DNA from: an uncultured Candidatus Peribacteria bacterium
GTDB lineage: Bacteria; Patescibacteriota; Gracilibacteria; Peribacterales; Peribacteraceae
Length of the DNA stretch: 40,360 nt
Direction: 5' to 3'
Assembly (NCBI GenBank): GCA_964348685.1
Contig: CAYGDM010000001.1
Location: 1-40,360 of the forward strand
The notes under the pieces are model-generated. The model was not told where the DNA came from. It did not search any database and saw nothing but the letters and a program-made list of their open reading frames with translations. The position numbers and the translations under genes are program-made. Below, in pieces: positions 16,474 through 37,629 of the stretch (positions are counted from its first letter, which is position 1; every line of letters starts with the position of its first letter).

Positions 16474-16559
16474 TAATGATATTCGAACAGGGATAGGCAG
16501 TCAAGAATGCGCTCCCCTTTCGGTTTTCACGGCATCATATGGGAGCGATGCACGTTTTA

Positions 16560-16568
16560 TGCTATAAT
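16560..16568 (+). promoter_or_regulatory. extended -10 TGCTATAAT, 6 nt before ATG 16575 (leaderless geometry)
   Basis: Exact TGnTATAAT. The A of the ATG is the 7th nt after the hexamer. Confidence 0.55.
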
Positions 16569-16574
16569 GATCCG

Positions 16575-17270: not shown

Positions 17271-17283
17271 TACACTCAGGACC

Positions 17284-18288: not shown

Positions 18289-18348
18289 TTTCGGCCTTCA
18301 CGGGTGATGCCAATACACGTGTGCTAAGTGGATAAAATGGCCTGAATA

Positions 18349-18357
18349 TGCTATGAT
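18349..18357 (+). promoter_or_regulatory. extended -10 TGCTATGAT, 6 nt before ATG 18364 (leaderless geometry)
   Basis: TGnTATGAT followed by GATCGC and then the ATG. Confidence 0.5.
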
Positions 18358-18363
18358 GATCGC

Positions 18364-20154: not shown

Positions 20155-20192
20155 TCGTCCCTCTACACCGACTCCTGTACCATGGCTTCGCC

Positions 20193-23378: not shown

Positions 23379-23442
23379 GCGAAAAGCATGCCAGACGCCG
23401 ACTACGCCCGCTCAAACAAACATGGCTGGGCACAGCAAAAAA

Positions 23443-23451
23443 TGCTATAAT
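23443..23451 (+). promoter_or_regulatory. extended -10 TGCTATAAT upstream of the phosphorylase gene
   Basis: Exact 9-mer 18 nt before ATG 23470. The leader has no SD. Confidence 0.5.
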
Positions 23452-23469
23452 CAAGACCACACACATCCT

Positions 23470-25128: not shown

Positions 25129-26868
25129 TTATCGCTCTCGCGGTGTTTGCAATTCCTCGTAAATCGTTTGAGGCTTCCACGAAGCGCTCGGATTCAACGA
25201 CGGAATCTTCATGGGATCGTATCCCAGCGAAACGGCTTGGTCGCGCAGCACGTGTTCGCGCAGTTTGTAATAGCGAAGAAACGTCGTCTCTTGGACCAAT
25301 TCGTAATAATGCTTGAACTCCGGCATGGCCTCCATTTCAAGCATAATCCGGAAAATCTTCGTAGTATTCACGTTCGCTCCTCTCTGGTCAGGCAGCGCAT
25401 GGCGAACGATCACCCAGCGAGCAAAGAGCCACGGCTCGCGCACCGCTTGGTCGAAATACCGATAATTTCCTTCGTATACGAACGCAGGAAGCGGAACAGT
25501 GGAACGGAGCATGCGTTCTTCGCTGTAAAAGCGCGTGAACAGCACGCGACCGCCATCGTAATCCGACAGCCAGTCACTGCTGCTCGTACCAGGATCGCTG
25601 GAGAATGCGGCAAACGCCTGCTCATCGTGCCGGATAACGACGAAGTTATTGTCGAACAGCACCATCGACAGGTGCCATACGGCGGCAAGAACGACGGCAG
25701 GTATGACGAGCACGACCGTCACCGCCCGAAGCGCGCGCCAGCGCATGAGCGCATCGATCGCGAGGACAATGGAGACGATTGATGCTCCTACCCACGTCAA
25801 TGCAAAACGGGCGTTATAGAAAAGTCCGTACGGATCCCCTTCGTTGCCAATCCGCGGCAATTCGGGCACCGAGATGCTGCTTCGACCGAGCATCATCGTA
25901 AGGAGCATGAACAGTGCAGGTGAAAACAAGAACAGCACAATGACGACCTCGGTCCACTGTCGACGCACCACCAACACTATCGGTATCGCGGCTGCAAATG
26001 CCGCGATCAACCATTGACCGTGAATATGCACGGAAGCGAGATACAACCTTTGAAGACTATAGAGCAGTACATCAAACGAGAAGCGCGAGGGGCGGAGCGA
26101 GCTCGCGGTCTCGCCGATCCGCTCCGTACCGAGCGAGAGGAAAGCAAGCGGAGACCCTGCGTAGACCGTGCTATAGAGTACGATGAAGAGAGTTCCAAGC
26201 AACGCAACGAAAGAAAATGTGAGAACTATCGCCTGCAGTTGCGCCCACAACATCTTTAACGACCAACAGCGAATCACCACGAAACAGATCGACAACGGAA
26301 TGAGCGTGAAACCTTCGAAACGTGCCAATGACGCAAGTGACACGAAAATACCGAACAATGACAGGTCCAGAAGCGACAACGTCCGTGACCACCGAAGCGC
26401 GAAATACGCGACGCCGGATACCATAACGATGAGCGGCAATTCCGCCATGACGGACGACGCGAAGTACTGGACGAACGGATGGATGAGGAAAAGAACGGGT
26501 GCGAGCAGCGAGGTTCGGGCGGACACGCCGCACTCTCTGCACGTACCGTACAAAAAATGAGCACCCAGGAGGAGGAGCGGGAGCATTGTGATGAATGCTC
26601 CGGCGACAAGCAAAACCGAATGCGGCAGCAGGATGATCGCGGGTAGGAGCAGCACGTGCAGAAGCGGCGGCCAGAAGCCTAACTGGCTGATGCCCGGGGT
26701 GAGGCTATAGACCATTTGAATAGACTGCAGCAGGTGCGATTTCGCGTCGGTAAAGGCATTCACGAATCCATGCGACTGCAGGTAAGCGAAGAACAACGCA
26801 GACACGATGGCAGCTGCGCCGTAGAGCAGCGTAGGAAGGGCCGATGGATGACGCCTGAAGAACATCAT
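25129..26868 (-). CDS. GT-C-fold (ArnT/PMT, GT39-like) polytopic membrane glycosyltransferase-like protein
   Basis: About 11-13 TM helices with an Asp in the first external loop (FTDAKSHL) and a soluble C-terminal domain of about 170 aa. The ATG overlaps the stop of the upstream GT2 fusion (ATGA). The family call is by architecture only. Confidence 0.5.
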   Translation of the reverse strand: MMFFRRHPSALPTLLYGAAAIVSALFFAYLQSHGFVNAFTDAKSHLLQSIQMVYSLTPGISQLGFWPPLLHVLLLPAIILLPHSVLLVAGAFITMLPLLLLGAHFLYGTCRECGVSARTSLLAPVLFLIHPFVQYFASSVMAELPLIVMVSGVAYFALRWSRTLSLLDLSLFGIFVSLASLARFEGFTLIPLSICFVVIRCWSLKMLWAQLQAIVLTFSFVALLGTLFIVLYSTVYAGSPLAFLSLGTERIGETASSLRPSRFSFDVLLYSLQRLYLASVHIHGQWLIAAFAAAIPIVLVVRRQWTEVVIVLFLFSPALFMLLTMMLGRSSISVPELPRIGNEGDPYGLFYNARFALTWVGASIVSIVLAIDALMRWRALRAVTVVLVIPAVVLAAVWHLSMVLFDNNFVVIRHDEQAFAAFSSDPGTSSSDWLSDYDGGRVLFTRFYSEERMLRSTVPLPAFVYEGNYRYFDQAVREPWLFARWVIVRHALPDQRGANVNTTKIFRIMLEMEAMPEFKHYYELVQETTFLRYYKLREHVLRDQAVSLGYDPMKIPSLNPSASWKPQTIYEELQTPRER

Positions 26869-29153
26869 GCCGAGGGCGGTATGGGCGTCGCAGAAACAAT
26901 GCTCATAACCGGATGATTCGTCTTATCCCACGTGGATTCTTGACGGAAGAACCGCAGGATAGAGCGAAGTGTTGCGTAGCTGAGGAATAGCCAGTAAATA
27001 GGCGAGAACAGAGCAAGGCCCACGAACGAATAATACTTTCGGTAGTAAAGACCGAGAAAATTGAAATATGTGAACATGAGGTTCGCGAGGAAGAATGACA
27101 TCACCGATAAATAGAGCAGGATATCGGTGAAGATCGTCTGCATGATGGGGTCGTTCGTCGCGTACCAGAAAAACAACATCATCCACTGCACGAGGTTCAA
27201 ACCATTGAGGAACACTCCTCCGGGAACGTGGAACATGAACATAAGCACGTTACGAAGTCCGCCGAGGTCCTTCCAGAGGAGTGCAGGGAAGCGCAGATTC
27301 ACCATGGACGTCTGCACGAACCCCTGCATCCAGCGAGTACGCTGTTTGATCCAGTCACCAAGCCTGGTGGTCGACTGCTCCCATGAAGCCGAATCGAGCA
27401 CTGAGGCGTTCTTGTACCCGTTGCGGAACATGCGGATGCCGATGTCACAATCTTCCGCGAGGTTGTATGCATCCCATCCACCGACCTTGATGAGTTGCTC
27501 GCGACGGAAATACACGCTGTGGCCGGAAATCGGCGTGGGCGATTTTACCGTGGCGAGGCCCGGCAGGAAAAAGTTGTAGAAGAATGCGAACTCCGCGGTA
27601 TACATCTTCGTGAGCCAATTGGTACTGGCGTTGTACACGTCGATGCGGCAATGCACGTAATCGAGGTGGGGGCTGTACTTGAACGCCGCCATGGCCTTCA
27701 TGAACTGGTCTGTCTCGGGAAGCGTCTCCGCGTCAAAAATCACCAGGAATTCCCCCTTCGTTTCGCGCAACGCCACGTTGAGCGCCTTCGGTTTCGTCTT
27801 CGGCTGCACGTCAGGCGAGACGAGCCCTTTGAAGTACGCGGGCTTTTTTATCTGGGTAAATGCGTTGATCGTGTCGTCGTCACCGGATTCGAAAATGAAT
27901 ATCAGATCTAGTTTGTCCGCCGGGTAATCCATGTCAGCCATGCGCTGACACAGCTGCGGCAACACCTCTTTTTCTTTGTACACCGGAAGAATCACCGAAA
28001 TAACCGGAAGATCTTTCTTGTCCTCATCCGACAATCCTTTGGGCGGCTGCGGCGGCAAACGGAACGTGATCGACACGACGTATACCTTGAAAAGGATCAG
28101 CGCGAACTGGATGATCGCAATGTGGAAGAACATCGACCACGCGAAGCTCTTTCCTGTAAGCTCATTGATAAGCCAAAAGTACCCGATGACAAAGAAAAAC
28201 GCATAAAATATTAGGAAATACACCTCGCGCGTAAGGTGCCCCTTCGCGCTTTGCTCTGGCGCGAGAAAGAGGTAGTCGTTGATGTTCGTAAAACCGGCCT
28301 CGAAGTATTCCTGTGGCTGCGGGGGGTAGAGGAACGGAAAAATGATGCGAGCAACGTGCGCGACATTAAGAGAAATAATGCTCAATGCGAGCGACGTGCG
28401 CGATGAGACTGACCCCCACACGCCGTGATGGAACATCGACCGCGTGTACGCCACTTTCATCGACGCGATCGTCCATCCGACGCGACGCGCGTGATAGAGC
28501 AGGATGGAATCGAAACCAAGGCGATGATCGAACTCCGGATCGAAACGCAGCGAATCGAGTAATGTGCGCCGGAACATTTTCAGACCCGATCGCACGTCGG
28601 CATCGACCGACAGCAAGATATGACCGAAAATCCACCGATAGAACGAACTGAAAATTTTGTACGCGAGAAACGGATACGCGGCGCGATTTGCAACGACGAT
28701 CTGCGCTTCGTCGAGCCGTGCAATCATCGCCCGAAACGCGTCGGGAGGACACCGCAGGTCCGCGTCGATCACCACGACGATGCCGCCCGTCGATTGATCC
28801 AACCCTTCTTTGATCGACATCGTGCGCCCCTTCACCCCCTGGTTGCGCACGTACCGCACGGGTACCGCTGCCGAAGCTGATCGAACGAAATCTTCCGTGC
28901 CGTCGCGGGAACGATCATCGACCACGAGAATTTCATACTCATACCCGCTGCCGTTCAACGCTACGGCGATGCGATCGAAGCATCCCGATAAAAAGCGTCG
29001 GTCATTGTGCACCGGTACGATGACACTAACCAACGTCGCACTCGCACGCGCGACGGCCTCCGCGTACTCCGAAATCGTCAATTCATCCGCACGATCAGCC
29101 ACAGCCGTTATTGCCGGATGCTGACTATCGTCCATGGAGGAATCGGCAGGCAT
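26865..29153 (-). CDS. two-domain GT2 fusion: GtrB/DPM1-like polyprenyl-phosphate glycosyltransferase domain plus membrane-embedded processive synthase-like GT2 domain
   Basis: N-terminal domain: VSVIVPVHNDRRFL, ILVVDDRSRDGT, VVIDADL, SGLKMFRR. C-terminal domain: ISVILPVYKEKEVL, FLVIFDAETLPE, NLAEDCDIGIRM, KQRTRWMQGF (QxxRW). The C-terminal domain is flanked by multiple TM helices. Confidence 0.8.
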   Translation of the reverse strand: MPADSSMDDSQHPAITAVADRADELTISEYAEAVARASATLVSVIVPVHNDRRFLSGCFDRIAVALNGSGYEYEILVVDDRSRDGTEDFVRSASAAVPVRYVRNQGVKGRTMSIKEGLDQSTGGIVVVIDADLRCPPDAFRAMIARLDEAQIVVANRAAYPFLAYKIFSSFYRWIFGHILLSVDADVRSGLKMFRRTLLDSLRFDPEFDHRLGFDSILLYHARRVGWTIASMKVAYTRSMFHHGVWGSVSSRTSLALSIISLNVAHVARIIFPFLYPPQPQEYFEAGFTNINDYLFLAPEQSAKGHLTREVYFLIFYAFFFVIGYFWLINELTGKSFAWSMFFHIAIIQFALILFKVYVVSITFRLPPQPPKGLSDEDKKDLPVISVILPVYKEKEVLPQLCQRMADMDYPADKLDLIFIFESGDDDTINAFTQIKKPAYFKGLVSPDVQPKTKPKALNVALRETKGEFLVIFDAETLPETDQFMKAMAAFKYSPHLDYVHCRIDVYNASTNWLTKMYTAEFAFFYNFFLPGLATVKSPTPISGHSVYFRREQLIKVGGWDAYNLAEDCDIGIRMFRNGYKNASVLDSASWEQSTTRLGDWIKQRTRWMQGFVQTSMVNLRFPALLWKDLGGLRNVLMFMFHVPGGVFLNGLNLVQWMMLFFWYATNDPIMQTIFTDILLYLSVMSFFLANLMFTYFNFLGLYYRKYYSFVGLALFSPIYWLFLSYATLRSILRFFRQESTWDKTNHPVMSIVSATPIPPSA

Positions 29154-29163
29154 AAATCCTTTT

Positions 29164-29172
29164 ATTATAGCA
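29164..29172 (-). promoter_or_regulatory. extended -10 TGCTATAAT (minus strand) for the GT2-fusion operon
   Basis: The reverse complement of ATTATAGCA is TGCTATAAT, 10 nt before ATG 29153. Confidence 0.5.
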
Positions 29173-29238
29173 GAAATTCAACCTTCTTCACAGCATCGAA
29201 TCACGATACGATTGGATATGGCGCCTATGCTGAAATTA

Positions 29239-29247
29239 TGGTACAAT
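29239..29247 (+). promoter_or_regulatory. extended -10 TGGTACAAT, 6 nt before ATG 29254 (leaderless geometry)
   Basis: TGnTACAAT followed by CATGAG and then the in-frame ATG 29254. Confidence 0.5.
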
Positions 29248-29253
29248 CATGAG

Positions 29254-32200
29254 ATGCGTCGACATCTTCGAGCACTGGCTCTCATCGCCGTCATCGGCTG
29301 CTCGCTAGTGCTGTATCGCGAGTGGGTGATGCGCAGCTCGCCGCCAATATTCTTGCCGCTGGGATTCTTCGAAAACGCGTCGAACATACACTCCCCCGAA
29401 GACGAAGCACGGGATCCGCGCGCATGGATAGACCCTCTTTCGTCGCTCGTCGTAGACGACGCCACGTTCATCCGCCTCACGCAGCACCTACGCGCCGACG
29501 AACGCACAACGGGAATTCTCGTAACGGGCGCGACGTTCGGTGGAATCGCAGCGGCCTTGTCCGCAGCGGAAGACGGCGTCCCGACCATACTCGTGACGGA
29601 ACGCGATTGGACCGCCGACATGCGGGCGGCGGCGGGACGCTTCCTTGCCCAAAAAACACTGCCCGATACGCCCGGCAGCGAGATCGAATCGTCACTGCGC
29701 GCCGCCGTAGGCGCGAACGGCACGCCGGCATCTGTCACCGCATTCTTCAAGCAGCGGGCGGCTTCCGCTCCGCTCTTAGATATCATGGAACACTACGTCA
29801 TCCTGGCGTTCGGGCGCTCGGAAGACGGCGCATTGAACCGAGCCTTGCTTCGTCACGCTGACGGAAGCGGCGAAACAATCGTGCAGTTTGAGTATGTGAT
29901 CGACGGCACGCTCGAGGGTTCAACACTCGCCAGCGCCGGGGCGCCGACGCGCGCAAGTTGGGATGCATCAATCGACGGCATAGACGTCGGCTCGTTGCCG
30001 ACACGGGCACTGTCCGCGTTGACGGAAGGATACACAATGAGTGGATACTCGATTCCCGGGCTAGGAAAGCGCATTGAAAACGGCACCGCGCAACTAGGCG
30101 TCATCGATCGTGGATTTAACGGTACGTTCGTGCCCATCGACGATGCGGATGACTGCTGGGAAAAAGACGGACGGGCCCCCCTCATCTCCACGGGAACGGT
30201 CCTGCGAACGAAAACCGTCGGGTGCACCGCCCGCATGCGGGTCGAATCGAACTTCGAAGATACCGTTGAATTGTTCCTTCTCAACCACGGAGACGACGGC
30301 ATGTCGGCGACCATCGCACTCGGAACGAATACGCTCCTATCGATTGACGCGCGGTTCGATCCAGCCGAAACATTCGTCCGATTGGGAGCTTTCCCCGTGG
30401 GACCGCAATCGCCCCTCGCCATCGAGCTGACGAGCGTCCTACCGACGAACCGCCTCGAAGGTATTGTCGCGCGCAAACTAAACACAGGCTCGGCCGGCGT
30501 GCATGCGACAACCGTCGGAAACGAACCTGCGGCGTTCATGACGAACGACTGGCGCAATACCACTTACGACATCTACATGACGACCGACAGCGTCGTCGGC
30601 ATTCCGCTAATCCTCATCGACGAACAACCATTCGAAACCACCCCTATCGGCCGAGGCACATACGCGGTACGAAACGTGTCACTCGGAAGCGCGGAACACA
30701 CGATGCGCATTCCTGATGGAGACGGAGTGCAGCGCATCTCCGCCATTCCCGTGCAACCGGTCGTAGCTGCCATACCGTTGACGATACTCTCGAGGAGCGA
30801 GGCAGAACCCTCCTGGACGTTCACGCCCACGAAAGACGGCACGGCCCTCCTTACGATACCCGCGCGCGCATGTGAAACGCGCTGCGTGCTCACCGTGCGC
30901 GTGATCGATTCATCGATACCGGAATTCCAAATCGAACGAACACCCGGTGAGGAACTGGTCGCGCAGACGATACCAGTAGACATGATCCGCCTTCGAGCTG
31001 GTACGACATATGCGATTCTGACGGACGCCGGGTACAACAGAATCACTCCGCCCGTCGTATCCATGATCGATAACGACGCGACGCTCTATGCCTCCGACAA
31101 CGGCAGCGCGACCGTTACGCCGTCGCGCGAAGGACTCTTATACGATATTTGGATTCGCTCTGTTCGATCGCCTCGAACCAGCGTTTCGGCAGACGGATAT
31201 GAGAGAGAAATTGCGTCGTCCGCTGATTGGCAATACGCCATCACGGAGCCTCTTTCTCTGAAAGGAGTCACCGCTCTCGCGGGCGGGAGAGTCGAAATAC
31301 TCGCCCTTCCGAACGTAACCGTCGACACCTATCACCTTCCGGTCTATCAACCGCAATCGATCGAACCTCCTCTCGTCAACCCTCTACCCGGCAGGTATCA
31401 AGTCGTCAGCTACGGCATCGACAATCCGACGGCCATCATCGCGGACAACGCGAAAGGAACGGTGCAAACACTATCTTTCACGGGCAATAACGGCTCCTAC
31501 CACGCCGAACAAACATATCTGCATTCTTCGCCCGCCCGGCTCTCGCTGTCGTCTCCATGGCCACAGCGACTCGTGCTCTACGAGCGCATCGCTAAACCGT
31601 TGGATGCCTCGGTGCCGATCCGCGATGCGACGATAGTCGCGCTCAACCGACAACGGTCGTCAGACGAATGGGACGAAGAGAAAGGATCGTTGATGTTCGA
31701 ACCGCGCGCACACGGCATCGGGCCCGTCACCATTGGCACAATGCATTCCCCCTCCGTCGACACTCGCGTAAGGGCAGCCACGGAAGACGCGTTTTTCCTC
31801 ATGCGCATGGGAAAAACAAATATCGACATTCCCGGCAAGAGCTGTGCCTTTTCCAAGAACCCGCGGTGCGACATGCGACGTTTCGTGCGCAACCCCGCCA
31901 TCTTCGGAACGAATGATAGCCTCGCGTCGCCCACGTTCTACACGGAGGGCAGACGGCTGATCGGCGCCGACACACTTACCACGACGGGCGCCTACGCCCT
32001 GCGGCGACAGTGCTCCTCGTGCCTCATGACATGCCTGCCAGCCACGTCGAGCGGATCAACGTGCGTCATGACGTCGGATCTCACAGTGCCGCAGGGAACG
32101 ATTCTAACTATTCGAGGCGCGCCCGGTGTTCCGTCAATAAGTTCTCCGCAGGAGATTGCCCAACATACGCTTCCGTCTCTCTTCAAATTAATGCGCCGAG

Positions 32201-32874
32201 ACGAATTACTCGAAGAGAAACCGACCTACTTGGAACATCATCCCCCATTGCGCGACATCTCACTCACGCTTGGCATGCTCATGCCGGCACAGCGACTAAA
32301 CATCCTCGCGGGTTCGACGACAGTCAGTACGACCGCGACGGCCGCGAAAAGCCTACGCCTTCCCACGACCGAACTTGCCATCGGCAGCGCCGCGGGGCAT
32401 GCCGCCGCGTTTTCGCTACGCGAAGAGCACTCCCCTTTGTGGCTCATCATGGAATCGCCCGACGCCTATGCGCGGCTGCAGCGATACCTCGTCGAGAAAG
32501 GCGCACGCGTACTTCCAGTGCACGGCACCGATGAGTTCTCAATGAAAGCCGTGCAGCGCAGGATCCTCGACGGCGACGAGACACTCTCGCCGCGATGGAC
32601 CGGCGACGGCGTGACATTCGTATCGTCGTCGTTCACGGCGGACGAACAAGCCCTCGTGTTCGGCGACGAAAACGTGCGAACGGTGAAGGACGCCCTCGAG
32701 CGATTGCCAGGTTCGCCCGAACAAAAAACGCCTGCGAACCTCTTCCGATTCGGCATGGAGAACGGCTTCTTGAACAAAAAAATGCTGAATCTCACCCTCG
32801 ACGAAATCATGAACATCCCGCTCGACGAGGAACTCCTCCTTGCGGCCGATTACCTGCTGCGCATGCAACCGTAA
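29254..32874 (+). CDS. 1206-aa membrane-anchored protein with split FAD-dependent-oxidoreductase (PF12831-like) motifs around a large insert of unknown function
   Basis: N-terminal TM LRALALIAVIGCSLVLY. Rossmann-like GILVTGATFGGIAAALSAAEDGVPTILVTE (nt 29512-29601). FEYVIDGTLEGSTLASAGAP (nt 29887-29946). EGRRLIGADTLTTTG (from nt 31945). NILAGSTTVS....ELAIGSAAGHAAAFSL (around nt 32371). Start chosen at 29254 because of the promoter geometry; the track ORF starts at 29134. Confidence 0.6.
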   Translation: MRRHLRALALIAVIGCSLVLYREWVMRSSPPIFLPLGFFENASNIHSPEDEARDPRAWIDPLSSLVVDDATFIRLTQHLRADERTTGILVTGATFGGIAAALSAAEDGVPTILVTERDWTADMRAAAGRFLAQKTLPDTPGSEIESSLRAAVGANGTPASVTAFFKQRAASAPLLDIMEHYVILAFGRSEDGALNRALLRHADGSGETIVQFEYVIDGTLEGSTLASAGAPTRASWDASIDGIDVGSLPTRALSALTEGYTMSGYSIPGLGKRIENGTAQLGVIDRGFNGTFVPIDDADDCWEKDGRAPLISTGTVLRTKTVGCTARMRVESNFEDTVELFLLNHGDDGMSATIALGTNTLLSIDARFDPAETFVRLGAFPVGPQSPLAIELTSVLPTNRLEGIVARKLNTGSAGVHATTVGNEPAAFMTNDWRNTTYDIYMTTDSVVGIPLILIDEQPFETTPIGRGTYAVRNVSLGSAEHTMRIPDGDGVQRISAIPVQPVVAAIPLTILSRSEAEPSWTFTPTKDGTALLTIPARACETRCVLTVRVIDSSIPEFQIERTPGEELVAQTIPVDMIRLRAGTTYAILTDAGYNRITPPVVSMIDNDATLYASDNGSATVTPSREGLLYDIWIRSVRSPRTSVSADGYEREIASSADWQYAITEPLSLKGVTALAGGRVEILALPNVTVDTYHLPVYQPQSIEPPLVNPLPGRYQVVSYGIDNPTAIIADNAKGTVQTLSFTGNNGSYHAEQTYLHSSPARLSLSSPWPQRLVLYERIAKPLDASVPIRDATIVALNRQRSSDEWDEEKGSLMFEPRAHGIGPVTIGTMHSPSVDTRVRAATEDAFFLMRMGKTNIDIPGKSCAFSKNPRCDMRRFVRNPAIFGTNDSLASPTFYTEGRRLIGADTLTTTGAYALRRQCSSCLMTCLPATSSGSTCVMTSDLTVPQGTILTIRGAPGVPSISSPQEIAQHTLPSLFKLMRRDELLEEKPTYLEHHPPLRDISLTLGMLMPAQRLNILAGSTTVSTTATAAKSLRLPTTELAIGSAAGHAAAFSLREEHSPLWLIMESPDAYARLQRYLVEKGARVLPVHGTDEFSMKAVQRRILDGDETLSPRWTGDGVTFVSSSFTADEQALVFGDENVRTVKDALERLPGSPEQKTPANLFRFGMENGFLNKKMLNLTLDEIMNIPLDEELLLAADYLLRMQP

Positions 32875-32965
32875 CCGCACCGCAGTACGGATGAAGGGCT
32901 AGAGTGATCACACAACGTATTAAGCATCTGGGAAGTCCAAGGAACTGCCGCAGAATGCATTTTTA

Positions 32966-32974
32966 TGGTATAAT
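32966..32974 (+). promoter_or_regulatory. extended -10 TGGTATAAT for the glucan operon
   Basis: TGnTATAAT 47 nt before ATG 33022. Confidence 0.5.
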
Positions 32975-32981
32975 CAAGAGA

Positions 32982-32999
32982 TTTCTCGACGTCGAGAAA
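32982..32999. promoter_or_regulatory. 18-bp perfect palindrome TTTCTCGACGTCGAGAAA (operator or 5' mRNA hairpin)
   Basis: Perfect dyad starting 8 nt after the -10 hexamer, about +2 to +19 of the predicted transcript. Confidence 0.45.
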
Positions 33000-33021
33000 C
33001 ATCCACACAAACACACGCTCA

Positions 33022-34296
33022 ATGTCCCTGCACACGCTCATGTTCGGATGGGAATATCCCCCGCTCCATACGGGGGGTCTCGGCGTCGCGTGCCAGGGCC
33101 TCGTTCGAGGTCTCACGAAAAATGGCGTGAAGGTCACGCTCGTGCTCCCGATGGATTTGCAGAGCCACCCCGACGCACACATGCTCCGCGGCCCCGCCGA
33201 CGCGACGGGCACGATCGAGCTTGATGAAGCGAGCGTGCGCTTCGTGCAGAGCGGGCTACAACCCTACGAAGGGTTCGCGGACTACGCGCAACGCATGAAC
33301 ATGCTCAGCGCGCAGAACGTCGCCGCGCCCGGTCAGTCGATCGCGGACCTCTACGGCCCCGACCTCGGCGAAGCCGTCTGGCGCTACGCCGAACAGAGCG
33401 TCGCCGTGACGAAGGACCTCCACCCCGACGTGATCCACTGCCACGACTGGATGACCTACGAAGCGGGCATCAGGGCCTCGAAGTACCACCGCGTCCCCCT
33501 CGTCGCGCACATCCACGCCACGGAGCTCGACCGTACGCACATGCAGCCCAACCAGTGGATCGCCGATCAGGAGCGCAACGGTTTCCTGATGGCCGACCGC
33601 ATCGTCGCCGTGAGCAACTACACGAAGAACATCCTCGTGCAGCACTACGGCATCAACCCGCACAAGATCTCGGTCGTCTACAACGGCCACGACGTGCCGG
33701 CCGGCAGCAACCTCCACATGCGCCACAAGAACATCGTCACCGACGCGAAGAAAAAGCGCGCGCCGCTCGTGCTCTTCCTCGGCCGCATGACCACGCAGAA
33801 GAACCCGGTTCTGTTCCTCGAGGTCGCAAAACTCGTGACCGACGCCAAGCCCGACGTGCAGTTCGTTATGGCCGGCGACGGCGGCATGCTCCAGGAGCTC
33901 GTCGACCAGTCGTGTCGCATGGGCCTCGGCGAAAACGTGATCTTCACCGGCAAAGTCGGCAAGCGCGAAGCGGAACAGCTTTACCGCCAAGCGGACTGCT
34001 TCGTGATGCCCTCGGTCAGCGAACCGTTCGGCTTGGTCGCTCTCGAGGCGATCGCTCACGGCACGCCGGTGATCCTCAGCAAGCAGTCCGGTGCCGCCGA
34101 GGTATGCGACCACGCGTTCAAAGTTGACTACTGGGACAAGGCGAAGATGGCCGACTGCATCCTCACAGTCCTCCGCGAGGAACCGCTGGCGCGCCAACTA
34201 CGCTCGGAAGCGCCGAGCATCCTCAAGCGCCTCAACTGGAAAAACCAGGCCGGCGAAGTGGCCTCCCTTTATAAACACATGCTCTCTTCCCTCTAA
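33022..34296 (+). CDS. GT-B glycosyltransferase, glycogen/alpha-glucan synthase-like (GT4/GT5)
   Basis: FGWEYPPLHTGGLGVACQGL at the N-terminus and PSVSEPFGLVALEAIAHGTPVI (E-x7-E) at the C-terminus. Sits within the glucan operon. Confidence 0.8.
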   Translation: MSLHTLMFGWEYPPLHTGGLGVACQGLVRGLTKNGVKVTLVLPMDLQSHPDAHMLRGPADATGTIELDEASVRFVQSGLQPYEGFADYAQRMNMLSAQNVAAPGQSIADLYGPDLGEAVWRYAEQSVAVTKDLHPDVIHCHDWMTYEAGIRASKYHRVPLVAHIHATELDRTHMQPNQWIADQERNGFLMADRIVAVSNYTKNILVQHYGINPHKISVVYNGHDVPAGSNLHMRHKNIVTDAKKKRAPLVLFLGRMTTQKNPVLFLEVAKLVTDAKPDVQFVMAGDGGMLQELVDQSCRMGLGENVIFTGKVGKREAEQLYRQADCFVMPSVSEPFGLVALEAIAHGTPVILSKQSGAAEVCDHAFKVDYWDKAKMADCILTVLREEPLARQLRSEAPSILKRLNWKNQAGEVASLYKHMLSSL

Positions 34297-34300
34297 TCGT

Positions 34301-35587
34301 ATGGCTCAGCGCGTTTGCTTCTACTTCCAAGTCCACCAGCCATACCGGCTGAAGGACCTGCGATACACCGACGTCGGCACCGACGCGCAGTACTTCGACG
34401 AAGAAAAAAACAGGGCGATCTTCCGGAAGGTATCCGAAAAGTGCTACCTGCCGACGAACGCGACGATGCTGAAGATGCTCAAAGAAAACCCAGGCTTCCA
34501 CGTGTCATACTCGCTCTCAGGCGTGTTCCTCGACCAGTGCATCGAATACGGACCGGACGTGCTGCGCTCGTTCCAGGAGCTGGCCGAGACAGGCCAGGTC
34601 GAGTTCCTCGCTGAGACCTACTACCACTCGCTGTGCAGCATCAAATCGCTCGGCGAATTCTGCGAACAAGTCACGAAGCACTCGCGCATGATCCAGAAAC
34701 TCTTCGGCCAGACGCCGACCGTCTTCCGCAACACCGAGCTTATCTTCAACAACGAGATCGCCCAGGTCGCCCGCCTCATGGGCTTCGAAGGCATCGTGAC
34801 CGAAGGCACCGACCGCCACCTCGCCGGCCGCACGCCGAACGTCCCCCACCGCACGCCGACCTTCCGCCTGCCCCGCGCGGCCGAAGCCGTCATCGCGAAG
34901 AAGCGCCCCCACGCGAAAGCCGCACGCACGATCGACGTGCTCCTGAAGAACTACAAACTCAGCGACGACGTCGCCTTCCGTTTCTCGGATAAAAACTGGT
35001 CCTGCCACCCGTTGCACTCCGACACCTACGCCAACTGGGTGATCGACACCCCTGGCCACAGCGTGAACCTCTTCATGGACTACGAAACCTTTGGCGAACA
35101 CCAGTGGGCCGACACGGGCATCTTCCAATTCCTCGCGTCGCTCCCCCATCAGTTCGCAGCCCGCGGCATCCGCGCCTGCACGCCGAGCCAGGTGATCGAA
35201 GAGTGGGACGCCGTGCATCCAACCTACGACGTGCACAACACAATTTCGTGGGCCGATACCGAACGCGACCTCTCGGCCTGGCAAGGAAACGTGATCCAGA
35301 ACGCATCGCTCGAGGCTATCTACAACATCGAAAAAGCCGTGAAGGCCACGAAAGACGCAAGCCTCATCGACACGTGGCGCAAGCTCCAGACCTCGGACCA
35401 CTTCTACTACATGTGCACGAAGTACTGGGCCGACGGCGACGTGCACAAGTACTTCAGCCCGTACGACTCGCCCTACGAAGCATACCGCCGCTTCAGCCAT
35501 GCGATGGCCCACCTACGCGCGCAGGTCGCCGCACGCGACGCCGGCAAGAAATCCCGCCGCATCAACCATTCATCCCCCACCGTCTAA
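34301..35587 (+). CDS. glycoside hydrolase family 57 (alpha-amylase / glucan-branching type)
   Basis: FYFQVHQPYRL and FMDYETFGEH regions are typical of GH57. ATG 34301 lies 4 nt after the upstream stop. The track start at 34091 is a spurious extension. Confidence 0.85.
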   Translation: MAQRVCFYFQVHQPYRLKDLRYTDVGTDAQYFDEEKNRAIFRKVSEKCYLPTNATMLKMLKENPGFHVSYSLSGVFLDQCIEYGPDVLRSFQELAETGQVEFLAETYYHSLCSIKSLGEFCEQVTKHSRMIQKLFGQTPTVFRNTELIFNNEIAQVARLMGFEGIVTEGTDRHLAGRTPNVPHRTPTFRLPRAAEAVIAKKRPHAKAARTIDVLLKNYKLSDDVAFRFSDKNWSCHPLHSDTYANWVIDTPGHSVNLFMDYETFGEHQWADTGIFQFLASLPHQFAARGIRACTPSQVIEEWDAVHPTYDVHNTISWADTERDLSAWQGNVIQNASLEAIYNIEKAVKATKDASLIDTWRKLQTSDHFYYMCTKYWADGDVHKYFSPYDSPYEAYRRFSHAMAHLRAQVAARDAGKKSRRINHSSPTV

Positions 35588-37629
35588 TGCCTCGCTCCCT
35601 CATGCTCGGCAACGGCTCGCTGCTCGCGACGTTCGATGCGCGGCTCCAGATGCGCGACCTCTACTTCCCGTACGTCGGAAAAGAAGACCACACGACGTTC
35701 GGCAAGGTGCACCGCATCGGCGCCTTCGTGGAAGGCCGCGGCTTCGCATGGTTCGACGACCCCTCGTGGCAGATCGAACCCGGCTACAAACTCGAAACGA
35801 TCGTCGGTCAGTCGAAGCTCCATAACGACCACCTCGGCATCGCGATCGATCTGGAAGACGCCGTACACCCGGTGCACAACGTCCTCATCCGCCGGTTCAC
35901 CATCCGCTCGCTCGACCAGGAAAAGAAAGTCGTGAAGATGTTTTTCAACCACGACCTCTACATCTACGGCGACAAACAAAAAGACACAGCCTTCTACGAG
36001 CCCTACACCAACAGCGTCATCCACTACCGCGACGAGCGGTACTTCCTGATCGGCGGCGACACCACCGCGCCGCAAGAATGCGCAGTCGGACACCGCGGCT
36101 CGCCGTTCGACTCGGTCCTCCACAGCAAGTCGAAGACCACGAGCTGCGGCATCTCGTCGTTCACGGTCGGCAAGAGTAACTATCGCGGCCTCGAAGGCAC
36201 CTGGCGTGACGCCGAAGACGGCATCCTCAGCGGCCACCCGATCGAACAGGGATCGGTCGACTCCACGGTCGGCATCCACTCGATCGTCGAACCCGGTGCC
36301 GAAGCCACGGTCACGCTGTGGCTGTGCGTCGGCACGAACCTCGACGAAGTCATCAAGCTCCAAGAATGCGTCGTGGAAGAAACGCCCGAACGGCTGCTCC
36401 GTAACGCCACCAACTACTGGAAGAGCTGGGTGAACAAGCGCCGCATCGACTTCGGATCGCTCGACACCCGCACGATCGAACTCTACAAGCGCAGCCTCCT
36501 CCAAGTGCGCCTCCACGCCGACAACGGCGGCGGCATCTTGGCCGCGGCCGACGCCGATATCATGGCCTTCAACCGCGATACCTACACCTACGTCTGGCCC
36601 CGCGACGGCGCGTTCATCTGCACCGCGCTCGACCGCGCCGGCTACGGCGAAGTGAGCCACCGGTTCTTCGAATTCTGCATCCGCGCCCAAACCGCCGACG
36701 GCTACATGCTCCACAAGTACAACCCGGACGGCTCGGTCGGCTCATCGTGGCACGCATGGTTCAAGAACGGCGAATCACAGCTGCCGATCCAGGAAGACGA
36801 AACCGCGCTCGTGCTCTACGCGATGCAAAAGCACTTCGAACAAGACCAGGACTTCGAATTCCTGCAGCGCTTATATGAATCGTTTGTAAAGAAAGCGGCG
36901 CAGTTCTTGTGCGACTTCCGCGAGGAGGGCACGGGCCTCCCCTTGCCGAGCTACGACCCGTGGGAAGAACAGCGCGGCATCTTCACCTACACGATCGCAA
37001 CGGTCATCGCGGGCCTCCACGCCGCGGCCCAGATGGCCCAGATGCTGGGCCACCATGCCCACTCGGAACGCTACCACCACGTGGCAGACGAGATGAAACA
37101 AGCGCTTTTCTTCCACCTCTACGACGAGAAAGAAGGCCGGTTCCTCAAGAAGATCGTCCGCAAGGACGGCAAGACCATCGAGCGCGACAACACCCCGGAC
37201 GCATCGATCACGGCGCTCTGGAAACTCGGCGTCTTACCCGTCGAAGACCCGCGTGTCGTCTCGACGATGGACGCCCTCGATCGCATGCTCACGGTGAAAA
37301 CGTCCGTCGGCGGCTGGGCCCGCTACACCAACGACACCTACCACTTCCCGGGCCAACCGACGGAAGAAGCCACGGGCAACCCGTGGATCATCACGACGCT
37401 CTGGAAGGCGCAGTGGATCATCGCCCGTGCCCGCACGAAAGACGACCTGACGAAGGCGCGCGCACTCATGGACTGGGTCGTCCGCTCTGCTACATCCACC
37501 GGCATCCTCGCTGAGCAGCTCCACGCCTACACGGGCGAACCGCTCTCGGTGGCGCCGCTCACGTGGAGCCACGCGACCTTCGTCGAGACGGTGCTTCTGT
37601 ACGTGGAGGCCGAAGCGCGTGTAGGATGA
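35587..37629 (+). CDS. glycoside hydrolase family 15 (glucoamylase/glucodextranase-like)
   Basis: YTYVWPRDGAF and SYDPWEEQRG (catalytic WEE region) in an (alpha/alpha)6 catalytic domain after a beta-rich N-domain. The start overlaps the GH57 stop (TAATG). Confidence 0.9.
   Translation: MPRSLMLGNGSLLATFDARLQMRDLYFPYVGKEDHTTFGKVHRIGAFVEGRGFAWFDDPSWQIEPGYKLETIVGQSKLHNDHLGIAIDLEDAVHPVHNVLIRRFTIRSLDQEKKVVKMFFNHDLYIYGDKQKDTAFYEPYTNSVIHYRDERYFLIGGDTTAPQECAVGHRGSPFDSVLHSKSKTTSCGISSFTVGKSNYRGLEGTWRDAEDGILSGHPIEQGSVDSTVGIHSIVEPGAEATVTLWLCVGTNLDEVIKLQECVVEETPERLLRNATNYWKSWVNKRRIDFGSLDTRTIELYKRSLLQVRLHADNGGGILAAADADIMAFNRDTYTYVWPRDGAFICTALDRAGYGEVSHRFFEFCIRAQTADGYMLHKYNPDGSVGSSWHAWFKNGESQLPIQEDETALVLYAMQKHFEQDQDFEFLQRLYESFVKKAAQFLCDFREEGTGLPLPSYDPWEEQRGIFTYTIATVIAGLHAAAQMAQMLGHHAHSERYHHVADEMKQALFFHLYDEKEGRFLKKIVRKDGKTIERDNTPDASITALWKLGVLPVEDPRVVSTMDALDRMLTVKTSVGGWARYTNDTYHFPGQPTEEATGNPWIITTLWKAQWIIARARTKDDLTKARALMDWVVRSATSTGILAEQLHAYTGEPLSVAPLTWSHATFVETVLLYVEAEARVG

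What the first reader, a model, noticed from the sequence alone, without database searches (positions are those of the whole stretch)
29254..32874. Giant membrane-anchored protein: an FAD-oxidoreductase fold split by about 650 residues of unknown sequence
The protein starts with a single TM anchor. It then shows a dinucleotide-binding beta-alpha-beta segment (GILVTGATFGGIAAALSAAEDGVPTILVTE, aa 87-116). The glycine pattern GATFGG is atypical compared with GGGxxG. The VIDxTxxG..AGA motif (FEYVIDGTLEGSTLASAGAP, aa 212-231) follows. The remaining family motifs (EGRRLIGADTLT; NILAGS...AIGSAAGHAAAFSL) appear only at about aa 898-1055. As I recall, PF12831-type FAD-dependent oxidoreductases are 430-600 aa in total, so roughly 500 or more residues here form an inserted module. 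The insert is Thr/Ser/Pro/Gly-rich and looks beta-rich, and I recognise no motif in it. The gene is transcribed divergently from the GT2-fusion operon across a 100-bp region holding two back-to-back extended -10 promoters, one of them leaderless. A redox enzyme with a large inserted (possibly glycan-binding) module, tethered at the membrane and co-regulated with a glycan synthase, would be a new type of polysaccharide-modifying component.
Basis: partly seen in the sequence, partly recalled or inferred. Interest (0 to 1): 0.75.

Follow-up and report, generated by a model that had tools for sequence, protein, structure and literature searches.

The report
Membrane-anchored flavoprotein fold with giant insert
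A 1,206-residue envelope protein found only in Peribacteria (uncultured ultra-small bacteria) has a flavoenzyme-type fold split by about 650 residues of beta-sandwich modules seen nowhere else, and it sits beside a cellulose-synthase-like glycan locus; its chemistry is still unknown.

Summary
ORF 29254-32874 encodes a 1,206-aa protein with one N-terminal membrane anchor. Residues 88-238 match the start of Pfam PF12831 (FAD_oxidored) and residues 1005-1062 match its end, each above threshold on its own. hhalign against a canonical 554-aa member aligns aa 60-240 and 868-1090. Residues 241-890 match nothing in Pfam or PDB. An exhaustive HMMER scan of 1.84 billion proteins found that region in only 35 proteins; the full-length ones share this architecture, and all sourced members are Peribacteria/Peregrinibacteria. 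AlphaFold2 with 38 sequences gives a compact model (pLDDT 87.9, pTM 0.85) with a largely beta insert.

- The "atypical" GATFGG motif is a G-x-T variant also present in a canonical, lipoprotein-signal PF12831 member.
- This subfamily has lost the GG motif, so FAD binding is unresolved.
- The apparent fusion to a GT2 enzyme is a frameshift artefact.

Topology signals, conserved cysteine pairs and the fastest divergence in the gene cluster suggest an extracytoplasmic protein. The conserved neighbours are a Dol-P-sugar-synthase/BcsA-like GT2 fusion and a GT-C transferase. The most likely role is to bind or modify a surface glycan. This is a new variant of a known kind and of moderate interest.

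The parts
29239..29247 (+). Extended -10 promoter element TGGTACAAT. The hexamer ends 6 nt before the ATG, so the mRNA is inferred to be leaderless.
   Evidence: Conserved as TGGTA[C/A]AAT in six loci at 36-83% protein identity. In L008 it contains an in-frame TAA, so it is non-coding. The pattern TGNTANAAT-N6-ATG occurs twice in the window against 0.00 expected by chance.
29164..29172 (-). Extended -10 element TGCTATAAT of the divergent GT2-fusion gene, 10 nt before its ATG (29153).
   Evidence: The block ...AAATCCTTTTATTATAGCA... is conserved in six loci; sequence read.
29254..32874 (+). CDS of the 1,206-aa protein (stop codon included).
29266..29316 (+). Single N-terminal hydrophobic segment (aa 5-21) after a short MRRH n-region: a signal-anchor.
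   Evidence: It is the only plausible TM segment: the other Kyte-Doolittle windows above threshold are the Rossmann beta1-helix (aa 87-105) and a proline-containing stretch (aa 494-513). An N-terminal hydrophobic segment was found in about 33 of the 37 members scanned.
29317..29451 (+). Juxtamembrane segment (aa 22-66) with the invariant YREW...R..PP.F.PLGFFE...W.DP motif. It is specific to this subfamily and is the most conserved part of the protein.
   Evidence: aa 1-66 (TM plus this segment) show 50-53% mean identity against 24-49% in the other regions.
29452..29973 (+). N-terminal half of the PF12831 flavoprotein-type fold (aa 67-240): beta-alpha-beta with G92-A-T94-F-G96-G97, and the IDGT motif at 216-219.
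   Evidence: Pfam 35.8 bits to profile positions 2-163. hhalign 94% to P0048 residues 12-213. PDB profile search and Foldseek hit flavocytochrome c3/SdhA-type FAD domains.
29974..30498 (+). Insert module D1 (aa 241-415), the most conserved part of the insert. Conserved residues: R273, D285, C301, C324 (invariant); D336, E402, N410 (>=90%); N344-H345 (invariant in this subfamily).
   Evidence: Beta strands with pLDDT about 90. No Pfam or P0048 match.
30499..31593 (+). Insert modules D2-D5 (aa 416-780): all-beta, sandwich-like modules. D2 and D3 are the most variable parts of the protein.
   Evidence: AF2 secondary structure and pLDDT. 24-40% identity. Only marginal internal similarity, D1-D4 and D4-D5 at about 50% hhalign probability. 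Weak Foldseek resemblance to the CBM-bearing parts of AftD and Paenibacillus xanthan lyase.
31594..31923 (+). Last part of the unmatched region (aa 781-890), mixed alpha/beta, with the invariant C864-x7-C872 pair and R876.
31924..32523 (+). C-terminal half of the PF12831 fold (aa 891-1090): EGRR (898-901), E967, NILAGS strand, R1035, G1044/G1048 and the long helix AIGSAAGHAAAF.
   Evidence: Pfam 30-33 bits to profile positions 348-405. hhalign 97% to P0048 residues 379-554.
32011..32064 (+). Four-cysteine loop C920-x2-C923-x3-C927-x9-C937, an insertion relative to canonical PF12831.
   Evidence: One search shows a gap in P0048 here. Spacing varies between subfamilies and the loop is deleted in P0029. 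It is therefore read as a disulfide-stabilised loop, not a metal centre.
32524..32871 (+). C-terminal alpha/beta extension (aa 1091-1206) beyond the end of canonical PF12831.
   Evidence: P0048 ends at the position aligned to aa 1090. Helices and strands with pLDDT 80-90.
26865..29153 (-). Divergent partner gene: a 762-aa GT2+GT2 fusion. The N domain is Dol-P-Man synthase/ArnC/GtrB-like; the C domain is a BcsA/PgaC-like processive synthase with TM segments.
   Evidence: Syntenic in all loci.
25129..26868 (-). 579-aa protein with about 11 TM segments, overlapping the GT2 fusion's stop by 4 nt. It is a GT-C (PMT_2/GT39-like) transferase; homologues in other CPR bacteria are fused to a GH8 endoglucanase domain.

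Best explanation
The gene encodes a lineage-restricted (Peribacteria/Peregrinibacteria) single-pass envelope protein.

Shown: its core is a PF12831-type (glutathione-reductase-2-class) flavoprotein fold. The two sequence halves of that fold (aa ~67-240 and ~891-1090) are separated by about 650 residues. Those residues form a conserved module D1, four more variable beta-sandwich-like modules, and a short alpha/beta piece. A ~115-aa C-terminal extension follows. The whole chain is predicted as one compact particle.

Inferred: the insertion occupies the point where this class of flavoproteins carries its variable substrate/cap domain. D1, together with the conserved core residues (D217/T219, R900/R901, E967, R1035), is therefore likely to form the working site. 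D2-D5 are likely to form an arm.

Inferred: the N-terminal segment acts as a Sec signal-anchor, so the bulk of the protein lies outside the cytoplasmic membrane and is stabilised by disulfides.

Inferred from conserved gene order only: it acts on, or holds, the surface glycan made next door. A BcsA-like synthase would extrude that glycan, and a polyprenyl-P-sugar synthase plus GT-C pair would decorate it outside the membrane. The conserved juxtamembrane motif would dock the protein to that machinery.

Unresolved: whether the core still binds flavin, and hence whether the chemistry is redox. In this subfamily the nucleotide-binding motifs are partly degenerate.
For: Architecture:
- Pfam hits to both ends of PF12831, each above the gathering score on its own.
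- hhalign to a canonical member at 94-97% for the two halves and <1% for aa 241-890.
- In the sister subfamily the Pfam coverage is profile 1-180 and 241-415, which places the insertion between profile positions about 180 and 241.
- AF2 with 38 sequences: mean pLDDT 87.9, pTM 0.85.
- Foldseek top hits are FAD enzymes at probability 1.00.

Uniqueness:
- Only 15 word-based homologues in 5.8 billion proteins.
- Only 35 hits in an exhaustive scan of 1.84 billion proteins with the insert profile; nearly all are 1,000-1,270 aa, and the few shorter ones examined are fragments.
- All named or sourced members are Peribacteria/Peregrinibacteria.

Outside location:
- A short basic n-region followed by one hydrophobic segment.
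- 10 of 11 Cys are invariant in the subfamily, and the C301/C324 and C864/C872 pairs are invariant in all 38 members.
- It is the fastest-evolving gene of the syntenic block: 36-42% identity against 70-89% for the cytoplasmic enzymes.
- Canonical relative P0048 carries a lipoprotein signal peptide.
- Peribacteria encode a disulfide-bond formation protein and many large extracellular proteins (PMC4736985).

Glycan link:
- Invariant synteny with the GT2 fusion and the GT-C gene across 36-83% identity.
- The partners are Dol-P-Man-synthase/BcsA-like and PMT_2-like with GH8 fusions in other CPR bacteria.
- The sister subfamily also sits among 10-11-TM proteins, a pyruvyl transferase, GT2 and NDP-sugar genes.

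Enzyme-like constraint:
- Invariant charged residues at PF12831 motif positions (R900, R901) and in D1 (R273, D285) in all 38 members; R1035, E967 and D336 conserved in >=90%.
Against: - No direct evidence of flavin binding. This subfamily lacks the GG motif ('VGGQ' in the sister subfamily, 'LGG' in P0048) and a conserved acidic residue at the end of beta-2.
- A non-covalent flavoprotein exported by Sec would have to acquire FAD outside the cell. The twin-arginine is not conserved (MRR/MHR/MLR/MI-), so Tat export is unlikely.
- The positive-inside count is balanced (2/2) in this subfamily.
- No carbohydrate-binding family is detected in the insert.
- Foldseek TM-scores are low (<=0.27), and model coordinates could not be inspected. 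N/C packing and Cys-Cys distances are therefore unverified.
- The functional link rests on gene order. The gene has its own promoter, and the downstream GT4 gene has another.
Confidence: 0.5

Rival explanations
1. It is a non-catalytic pseudo-flavoenzyme. The Rossmann-type core has lost its cofactor. The protein would be a structural co-subunit of the BcsA-like synthase, analogous to BcsB, that guides or holds the nascent glycan outside the membrane through its beta-sandwich modules.
For: - Loss of the GG motif and of the acidic residue at the end of beta-2 in this subfamily.
- Export without a Tat motif.
- The juxtamembrane segment is the most conserved part, which suggests docking to a membrane partner.
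- The BcsA-like partner is encoded divergently in every locus.
- From my own knowledge: BcsB is likewise built of cofactor-less alpha/beta (flavodoxin-like) domains plus carbohydrate-binding jelly rolls and has a single TM anchor.
Against: - Charged residues at PF12831 motif positions (R900/R901 invariant; E967, R1035, D217 conserved in >=90%) are kept across both subfamilies at about 20% identity, as expected for an active site.
- No sequence match to BcsB or any other family at Pfam E<=1.
- The sister subfamily is not next to a BcsA-like gene.
Confidence: 0.25
2. It is a surface adhesin or host-attachment protein of an episymbiotic CPR bacterium. The beta-sandwich array would bind another cell's surface, and the position beside the glycan locus would be incidental.
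For: - It is the fastest-diverging gene in the block, and the distal modules D2/D3 are only 24-31% identical.
- Peribacteria are reported to encode large extracellular proteins proposed to act in attachment (PMC4736985).
Against: - Strict single-copy synteny and constant length and architecture across the family.
- The conserved enzyme-type core and D1.
- It is not cysteine-rich like the proteins described in that paper (11 Cys in 1,206 aa).
Confidence: 0.1
3. It is a cytoplasm-facing, membrane-tethered genuine FAD oxidoreductase. The four-cysteine motif would bind a metal or Fe-S centre, and the enzyme would act on a lipid-linked or nucleotide sugar before export.
For: - Cofactor loading is simple in the cytoplasm.
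- Peribacter can make FMN and possibly FAD (PMC4736985).
- There is a CxxCxxxC...C motif.
- The positive-inside tally is not decisive.
Against: - The Cys-loop spacing varies (x2-x4 / x3-x4), and the loop is deleted in P0029 and absent from canonical PF12831.
- The other Cys occur in invariant local pairs typical of disulfides.
- The n-region plus h-region looks like a signal-anchor. One sister member has a lipobox-like LLLWGC and the canonical relative has a lipoprotein signal.
- The divergence rate is that of an exposed protein.
Confidence: 0.1

Closest known systems
Canonical exported PF12831 (FAD_oxidored) proteins of about 450-600 aa with the 'YGGT' motif, e.g. P0048 (554 aa, lipoprotein signal). 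As far as I could find, these are uncharacterised.
   Same: - Both halves of the fold align (94-97% hhalign).
- The same G-x-T variant of the dinucleotide motif is present.
- The same REaRR/EGRR motif, the 'LTLG...N.L' strand, and the final S-x-R...G-x-AAG-x-AAA helix are present.
- Both carry an N-terminal export-type signal.
   Different: - About 650 aa (241-890) replace the ~190-aa middle of the canonical protein and show no detectable homology to it.
- There is an extra four-Cys loop, an extra ~115-aa C-terminal extension, and a conserved juxtamembrane segment.
- The GG motif and the D-x-H motif are lost in this subfamily.
Sister subfamily in Peribacter riflensis and other Peregrinibacteria (e.g. 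ALM09468.1 = P0046, 1,265 aa, annotated 'FAD dependent oxidoreductase').
   Same: The same overall architecture: anchor, split PF12831 fold, homologous insert, C-terminal extension. Residues R273, D285, C301/C324, C864/C872 and R900/R901 are invariant in both.
   Different: - Only about 20% identical.
- Keeps 'VGGQAVESGxSAFD' and 'Y..D.H.F'.
- Lacks the YREW juxtamembrane segment.
- Lies in a different envelope locus with a pyruvyl transferase and other 10-11-TM proteins, with no BcsA-like gene.
Fumarate reductase / succinate dehydrogenase flavoprotein class (flavocytochrome c3, SdhA; PF00890).
   Same: These are the best structural and profile matches for the N-terminal Rossmann part. The FAD domain is discontinuous, with a cap domain inserted in the middle (domain layout from my own knowledge).
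   Different: Only about 200 residues superpose (TM <=0.27). Covalent-flavin and active-site His/Arg equivalence could not be established. Their cap domains are about 100-150 aa, not 650.
BcsB, the periplasmic partner of the cellulose synthase BcsA (analogy only).
   Same: A single-pass, extracytoplasmic protein encoded beside a BcsA-type GT2. It combines cofactor-less nucleotide-binding-like alpha/beta folds with beta-sandwich carbohydrate-binding modules (my own knowledge). The partner here is BcsA-like.
   Different: No sequence or fold match was found. BcsB's anchor is C-terminal and its alpha/beta domains are flavodoxin-like. BcsB is co-operonic, whereas this gene is divergent with its own promoter.
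LSD1/KDM1A, whose amine-oxidase domain is split by the Tower insertion (architectural precedent, my own knowledge).
   Same: A GR2-class FAD fold interrupted by a large inserted module that provides a binding platform.
   Different: The Tower is about 100 aa of coiled coil in a eukaryotic nuclear enzyme. The protein here carries a 650-aa beta array in a bacterial envelope protein.

Membership tests
Pfam PF12831 FAD_oxidored | Sequence score above the curated gathering threshold (27 bits) | tested here: met
   60.2 bits for the whole protein. The N piece scores 35.8 bits and the C piece 30.4-33 bits on their own. All 38 family members hit the family.
Pfam PF12831 FAD_oxidored | Colinear match to both the N-terminal and the C-terminal parts of the family profile | tested here: met
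   aa 88-238 match profile 2-163 and aa 1005-1062 match profile 348-405. hhalign to canonical P0048: aa 60-240 with residues 12-213, and aa 868-1090 with residues 379-554.
Pfam PF12831 FAD_oxidored | Family-type middle region (profile positions about 164-348) | tested here: not met
   aa 241-890 have no Pfam hit at E<=10 and <1% hhalign probability to P0048's middle.
FAD-binding GR2-class flavoproteins | GxGxxG dinucleotide-binding motif | tested here: inconclusive
   The motif is G92-A-T94-F-G96-G97, with the second Gly replaced by an invariant Thr (Ser in part of the sister subfamily). Canonical PF12831 P0048 has the same change (GGTSSA). From my own knowledge, NADH oxidase/peroxidase-type flavoproteins bind FAD with G-x-S/T-x-x-G, so the variant does not exclude FAD.
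FAD-binding GR2-class flavoproteins | GG motif shortly after beta-2 and an acidic residue at the end of beta-2 | tested here: not met
   The window subfamily has 'ERDWTADMRAAAG' where the sister subfamily has 'VGGQAVESG' and P0048 has 'HLGGLTSSG'. The residue after beta-2 varies (E/S/R/P/G/A/D).
FAD-binding GR2-class flavoproteins | Bound flavin cofactor | not testable with these tools
   This needs a spectrum or mass spectrometry of purified protein, or cofactor-aware modelling.
FAD-binding GR2-class flavoproteins | N- and C-terminal segments pack into one nucleotide-binding domain | tested here: inconclusive
   The model is compact and high-confidence (pTM 0.85), and the secondary-structure order is as in the family. 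Contacts could not be read, and Foldseek aligns only about 200 residues.
Tat-exported flavoproteins | Conserved twin-arginine S/T-R-R-x-F-L-K signal | tested here: not met
   Only M1 and R3 are invariant. Position 2 is R/H/L/I/P, and there is no F-L-K.
Carbohydrate-binding modules (Pfam CBM families) | Profile match of the insert to a CBM family | tested here: not met
   No family at E<=10 for the insert, and none in any of 38 members at E<=0.1. There is only a weak fold resemblance to the CBM-bearing AftD and xanthan lyase.
BcsB (PF03170) cellulose synthase subunit | Sequence match to the BcsB family | tested here: not met
   PF12831 is the only Pfam hit at E<=1.
Fe-S / zinc cysteine-cluster proteins | Fixed Cys spacing conserved in all members | tested here: not met
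   The spacing is C-x2-C-x3-C-x9-C here, C-x4-C-x4-C-x9-C in P0025 and C-x2-C-x4-C-x9-C in P0027. The loop is deleted in P0029 and absent from P0048.

The most novel reading that the evidence does not exclude
A flavoenzyme fold is exported by the Sec route, locked by disulfides, and equipped with a 650-residue beta-sandwich arm. It works outside the cell of a CPR bacterium on a nascent cellulose-like surface glycan. Either it uses a flavin acquired outside the cell, or it has converted the flavin pocket into a new cofactor-free catalytic or glycan-threading site. That would be a new class of extracytoplasmic polysaccharide-processing component. It would also give a functional lead for the large, uncharacterised group of exported 'GGT-type' PF12831 proteins.
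Probability: 0.2. Interest if true: 0.7.

Novelty: new variant of a known kind. Interest (0 to 1): 0.5.

Why it matters
CPR bacteria depend on their envelope for an attached, symbiotic life, yet most of their large envelope proteins have no assignable fold or partner. This protein has three useful handles:
- a recognisable enzyme-type core;
- an insert found nowhere else among 1.84 billion representative proteins;
- a fixed genomic partnership with a BcsA-like synthase, a polyprenyl-P-sugar synthase and a GT-C transferase.

That makes it a concrete, testable entry point into how Peribacteria build or remodel a surface glycan.

It also raises a wider question. At least one canonical member of PF12831 carries an export signal and the same G-x-T motif (from memory, such exported members are common), and no solved structure or described function turned up in the searches run here. 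Showing whether such exported proteins hold flavin at all would matter beyond this lineage.

If the protein is simply a scaffold or an adhesin, the finding is a well-described but ordinary lineage-specific envelope protein.

Tried and rejected
1. The 1,485-aa 'BIG+GT2 fusion' (P0015) first looked like proof of a functional and topological link. It is identical to P0010 up to about aa 900, then turns into Arg-rich out-of-frame text that runs into the next gene. It is a 1-nt frameshift artefact and was rejected.
2. PDB sequence searches with the protein, the family profile and canonical P0048 found only the generic Rossmann N-terminus or nothing.
3. Foldseek on both models gave FAD enzymes plus generic multi-beta-sandwich proteins (AftD, xanthan lyase, Cry toxins) at low TM. 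It could not identify the insert modules or show N/C packing. Model coordinates are not exposed.
4. The first AF2 run with 15 sequences was poor (pLDDT 64.6, C-terminal region <50). Adding the sister subfamily fixed this.
5. Pfam on the insert alone and on all 38 members found nothing beyond FAD-type families. NCBIfam gave only a sub-threshold UbiH hit at the Rossmann motif.
6. An internal-repeat test of D1-D5 gave only marginal similarities of about 50% probability.
7. The Fe-S/zinc reading of CxxCxxxC...C was rejected because the spacing varies and the loop is deleted in one member.
8. A Tat signal was rejected.
9. The sigma-70 consensus scanner missed both promoters because they lack a -35 element. 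Conservation across loci was used instead.
10. Literature searches for PF12831, FAD_oxidored and 'xanthan lyase + FAD-dependent oxidoreductase' found no characterised close relative.
11. An exact look-up of the window's own protein found no record in the contig index.

Full report
**Observation.** The window (59% G+C) carries an ORF at 29134-32874 on the + strand. The motif TGGTACAAT, whose hexamer ends 6 nt before it, is conserved at the DNA level in six related loci. In L008 it reads TGG-TAA in frame, so the upstream stretch cannot be coding. The product is 1,206 aa, with one N-terminal membrane-type hydrophobic segment (aa 5-21).

**Is it a split PF12831 fold?** Yes.
- The whole protein hits only PF12831 (E 2.9e-16).
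- Scanned as separate pieces, aa 88-238 match profile positions 2-163 (35.8 bits) and aa 1005-1062 match positions 348-405 of 416 (30-33 bits). Both exceed the 27-bit gathering score. The 651-aa middle piece hits nothing at E<=10.
- A profile of the family aligned to a canonical full-length PF12831 protein (P0048, 554 aa, PF12831 1-416 at E 6e-108) pairs aa 868-1090 with P0048 379-554 at 97%.
- In piecewise tests, aa 60-240 pair with P0048 12-213 (94%) and aa 891-1060 with 402-528 (96.6%). The six pieces covering aa 241-890 each give <1%.
The NILAGS...AIGSAAGHAAAF stretch is the family's terminal strand-helix.
- In the sister subfamily the Pfam coverage is profile 1-180 and 241-415. This puts the insertion between profile positions about 180 and 241.
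- From general knowledge of glutathione-reductase-2-class flavoproteins, this is where the variable substrate/cap domain is inserted into a naturally discontinuous FAD domain. The right description is therefore an extreme expansion or replacement of that region.

**How unusual is the insert?**
- A word-indexed search of 5.8 billion proteins found 15 homologues. All but two (a partial protein and a frameshifted one) are about 1,210-1,250 aa and align over the full length.
- An exhaustive HMMER search of 1.84 billion representatives with a profile of aa 240-1000 found only 35 proteins. 34 of them have E<=1e-10, nearly all are 1,000-1,270 aa with the same layout, the few shorter ones examined are fragments, and nothing else was found.
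- Genome records name the carriers as Candidatus Peribacteria/Peribacteraceae. The more distant subfamily (about 20% identity) is from Peribacter riflensis and other Peregrinibacteria, where it is annotated 'FAD dependent oxidoreductase' or hypothetical.
- None of the 38 members has any Pfam domain in the insert.

**Structure.**
- With 15 sequences AlphaFold2 gave a poor model (pLDDT 64.6; aa 778-1046 below 50).
- Adding the distant subfamily (38 sequences) gave mean pLDDT 87.9 and pTM 0.85. The chain is thus predicted as one compact, well-defined particle.
- The order of elements is: Rossmann beta-alpha-beta and beta-meander (aa ~82-217); a long, almost purely beta region (aa ~280-776) that I divide into modules D1-D5; a mixed alpha/beta region; the terminal strand plus long helix (aa 1017-1058); and an extra alpha/beta C-terminal extension.
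- Foldseek against the PDB returns FAD enzymes (flavocytochrome c3, SdhA/FrdA, aromatic hydroxylases) at probability 1.00. Only about 200 residues align (TM <=0.27). It also returns generic multi-sandwich proteins such as the CBM-bearing AftD and Paenibacillus xanthan lyase.
- Coordinates are not exposed. I could not directly verify that the N and C halves pack together or that the cysteines pair. This is the main gap.

**Cofactor question.**
- The 'atypical' GATFGG aligns to GxGxxG as G-x-T-x-x-G. The Thr is invariant in this subfamily and is Ser or Thr in the sister subfamily.
- The canonical P0048 has the same change (YGGTSSA) together with a lipoprotein signal peptide (LLFFGC). It is therefore not a peculiarity of this protein, and may be a trait of an exported branch of PF12831.
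- From my own knowledge, NADH oxidase/peroxidase-type enzymes bind FAD with G-x-S/T-x-x-G, so the variant alone does not exclude flavin.
- However, the window's subfamily has also lost the GG motif ('VGGQAVESG' in the sister subfamily, 'HLGG' in P0048). It has no conserved acidic residue at the end of beta-2 and lacks the 'D-x-H' motif.
- Against simple decay, charged residues at family motif positions (R900, R901) and in D1 (R273, D285) are invariant in all 38 sequences, and R1035, E967, D217 and D336 are conserved in at least 90%.
- FAD binding is therefore unresolved. An active or ligand-binding site is likely retained.

**Topology.** I judge an outside location about 80% likely.
- For:
  - A short basic n-region plus one hydrophobic stretch, the classic signal-anchor layout.
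  - Ten of eleven cysteines are invariant, and six of them sit in three close pairs (301/324, 540/544, 864/872). Two of these pairs are invariant across both subfamilies.
  - The remaining four-Cys loop has variable spacing, is deleted in P0029 and is absent from canonical PF12831. It is read as a disulfide loop, not a metal site.
  - One sister member has a lipobox-like LLLWGC.
  - Peribacteria encode a disulfide-bond formation protein and many large extracellular proteins (PMC4736985).
  - The gene is the fastest-evolving in its syntenic block: 36-42% identity, against 80-89% for GT4/GH57/GH15, 70-73% for the GT2 fusion and 42-53% for the multi-TM protein.
- Against:
  - The positive-inside count is balanced in this subfamily because of the conserved YREW..R motif.
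  - There is no conserved twin-arginine, so a folded, flavin-loaded protein could not use Tat.

**Conservation within the protein.** The TM plus juxtamembrane segment (50-53%), D1 (49%) and the C-terminal core (44-46%) are the most conserved parts. D2 and D3 are the least conserved (24-31%).

**Neighbourhood.**
- The 100-bp divergent region holds TGCTATAAT, 10 nt before the GT2-fusion ATG, and TGGTACAAT, whose hexamer ends 6 nt before this gene's ATG. Both are conserved in six loci.
- The pattern TGNTANAAT-N6-ATG occurs twice in the window against 0.00 expected.
- GT4 downstream has its own TGGTATAAT about 48 nt upstream of its start. This gene is therefore probably monocistronic, and co-regulation is only suggested by promoter proximity.
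- The partner operon encodes a 762-aa fusion. Its N domain resembles Dol-P-Man synthase, ArnC and GtrB. Its C domain resembles BcsA.
- Overlapping the fusion by 4 nt is a 579-aa protein with about 11 TM segments. Its homologues carry PMT_2 (GT-C/GT39). In other CPR phyla they are fused to a GH8 endoglucanase, the BcsZ family.
- This trio is the signature of a polymer extruded through the membrane and glycosylated outside from a polyprenyl-P-sugar (inference from known systems).
- The block GT2-GT2-GSDH-phosphorylase-GT-C-GT2 fusion || this gene-(GT2)-GT4-GH57-GH15 is syntenic down to 36% identity of this protein.
- The sister subfamily sits in a different envelope locus with other 10-11-TM proteins, a pyruvyl transferase, GT2 and NDP-sugar enzymes.

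**A false lead.** P0015 appeared to be a natural fusion of this protein with the downstream GT2, which would have been strong evidence. It is a frameshift: identical to P0010 up to about aa 900, then Arg-rich out-of-frame text that reads into the next gene.

**Mechanism.**
- My preferred reading (0.5) is a Sec-inserted, disulfide-stabilised, membrane-tethered ectoprotein. Its PF12831 core plus D1 form a working site. D2-D5 form an arm. The juxtamembrane motif docks it to the synthase/GT-C machinery, and it binds or modifies the nascent surface glycan. Only the architecture, the restricted distribution and the synteny are shown; location, partner and substrate are inferred.
- The chief rival (0.25) is that the core is cofactor-less and the protein is a BcsB-like structural co-subunit.
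- Lesser rivals are an adhesin (0.1) and a cytoplasm-facing true flavoenzyme (0.1).

**Comparison and novelty.**
- It passes the sequence tests for PF12831 membership.
- It fails the family-type middle region and, in this subfamily, the GG motif.
- It has no detectable membership in BcsB, CBM, Tat-substrate or Fe-S families.
- I found no paper describing this family or a characterised close relative.
- It is a new variant of a known kind: a known fold class with an unprecedented 650-residue, lineage-restricted insert and an envelope context.
- Interest is moderate (0.5). The architecture and the 'exported flavoprotein fold' puzzle are real and testable, but function is inferred from gene order, and lineage-specific giant envelope proteins are common in CPR genomes.

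Noticed in passing
L004:10001-14458 and L005:4923-9380 (protein P0015): The database's 1,485-aa 'FAD_oxidored + GT2' protein is a 1-nt frameshift product, not a natural fusion. It matches P0010 to about aa 900, then reads Arg-rich out-of-frame text into the downstream 274-aa GT2 gene. The same product appears in two assemblies.
   Followed up: yes
window 25129-26868 (-): A 579-aa protein with about 11 TM segments and no Pfam hit of its own. Its homologues carry PMT_2 (GT-C/GT39). In Saccharibacteria and other CPR bacteria they are about 930 aa and fused to a GH8 (BcsZ-type endoglucanase) domain. This GT-C + GH8 fusion is worth its own look.
   Followed up: partly
window 26865-29153 (-): A single polypeptide fuses a polyprenyl-phosphate-sugar synthase-like GT2 (Dol-P-Man synthase/ArnC/GtrB-like, aa ~40-200) to a BcsA/PgaC-like processive GT2 with TM segments (aa ~310-700). 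It is 70-94% conserved in all related loci.
   Followed up: partly
window 32875-33021, compared with L001:13633-14457 and L003:13734-14558: Most relatives have a 274-aa GT2 gene directly after the big gene. It is absent here and in the 83%-identical relative L006. The 147-bp gap instead holds a TGGTATAAT element (32966-32974) upstream of GT4.
   Followed up: partly
window 20193-21083 (+): A 296-aa methyltransferase matches the PRMT oligomerisation domains (PRMT_C E 1.9e-8, PRMT5_C E 2.9e-7). It is a protein-arginine-methyltransferase-like enzyme in a CPR bacterium.
   Followed up: no
window 16560-16577 (+): A second exact TGNTANAAT-N6-ATG (TGCTATAATGATCCGATG) implies another leaderless gene starting at 16575. 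That is 36 nt inside the longest ORF call (16539-17270, weak HD-domain hit).
   Followed up: no
window 18364-20154 (+): A 596-aa sulfatase-family (PF00884) protein, possibly an LtaS/phosphoglycerol-transferase-type envelope enzyme, lies upstream of the glycan cluster.
   Followed up: no
window 23164-25128, 34091-35587, 35104-37629 (+): The longest-ORF calls for the phosphorylase, GH57 and GH15 genes overlap their neighbours by 100-480 nt. Gene calls in relatives are shorter for GH57 and GH15 (459 and 682 aa in L001) and for the phosphorylase in L003 (550 aa), so the true starts are probably later.
   Followed up: partly
window 37563-38426 (+) and 22044-23378 (-): An unannotated 287-aa protein with a signal-peptide-like N-terminus, and the GSDH-like beta-propeller, are also fast-evolving (41-55% identity against 80-89% for cytoplasmic neighbours). 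This fits further exposed envelope components in the same block.
   Followed up: partly
L009:5497-9945 and 16510-20612; L010 and L011 equivalents: The sister subfamily's loci contain conserved, unannotated large proteins (847-849 aa with one TM; 885-971 aa with 9-10 TM; 444-461 aa with one TM) beside an 811-aa pyruvyl-transferase protein. This looks like a second, uncharacterised envelope-glycan system in Peribacter.
   Followed up: partly
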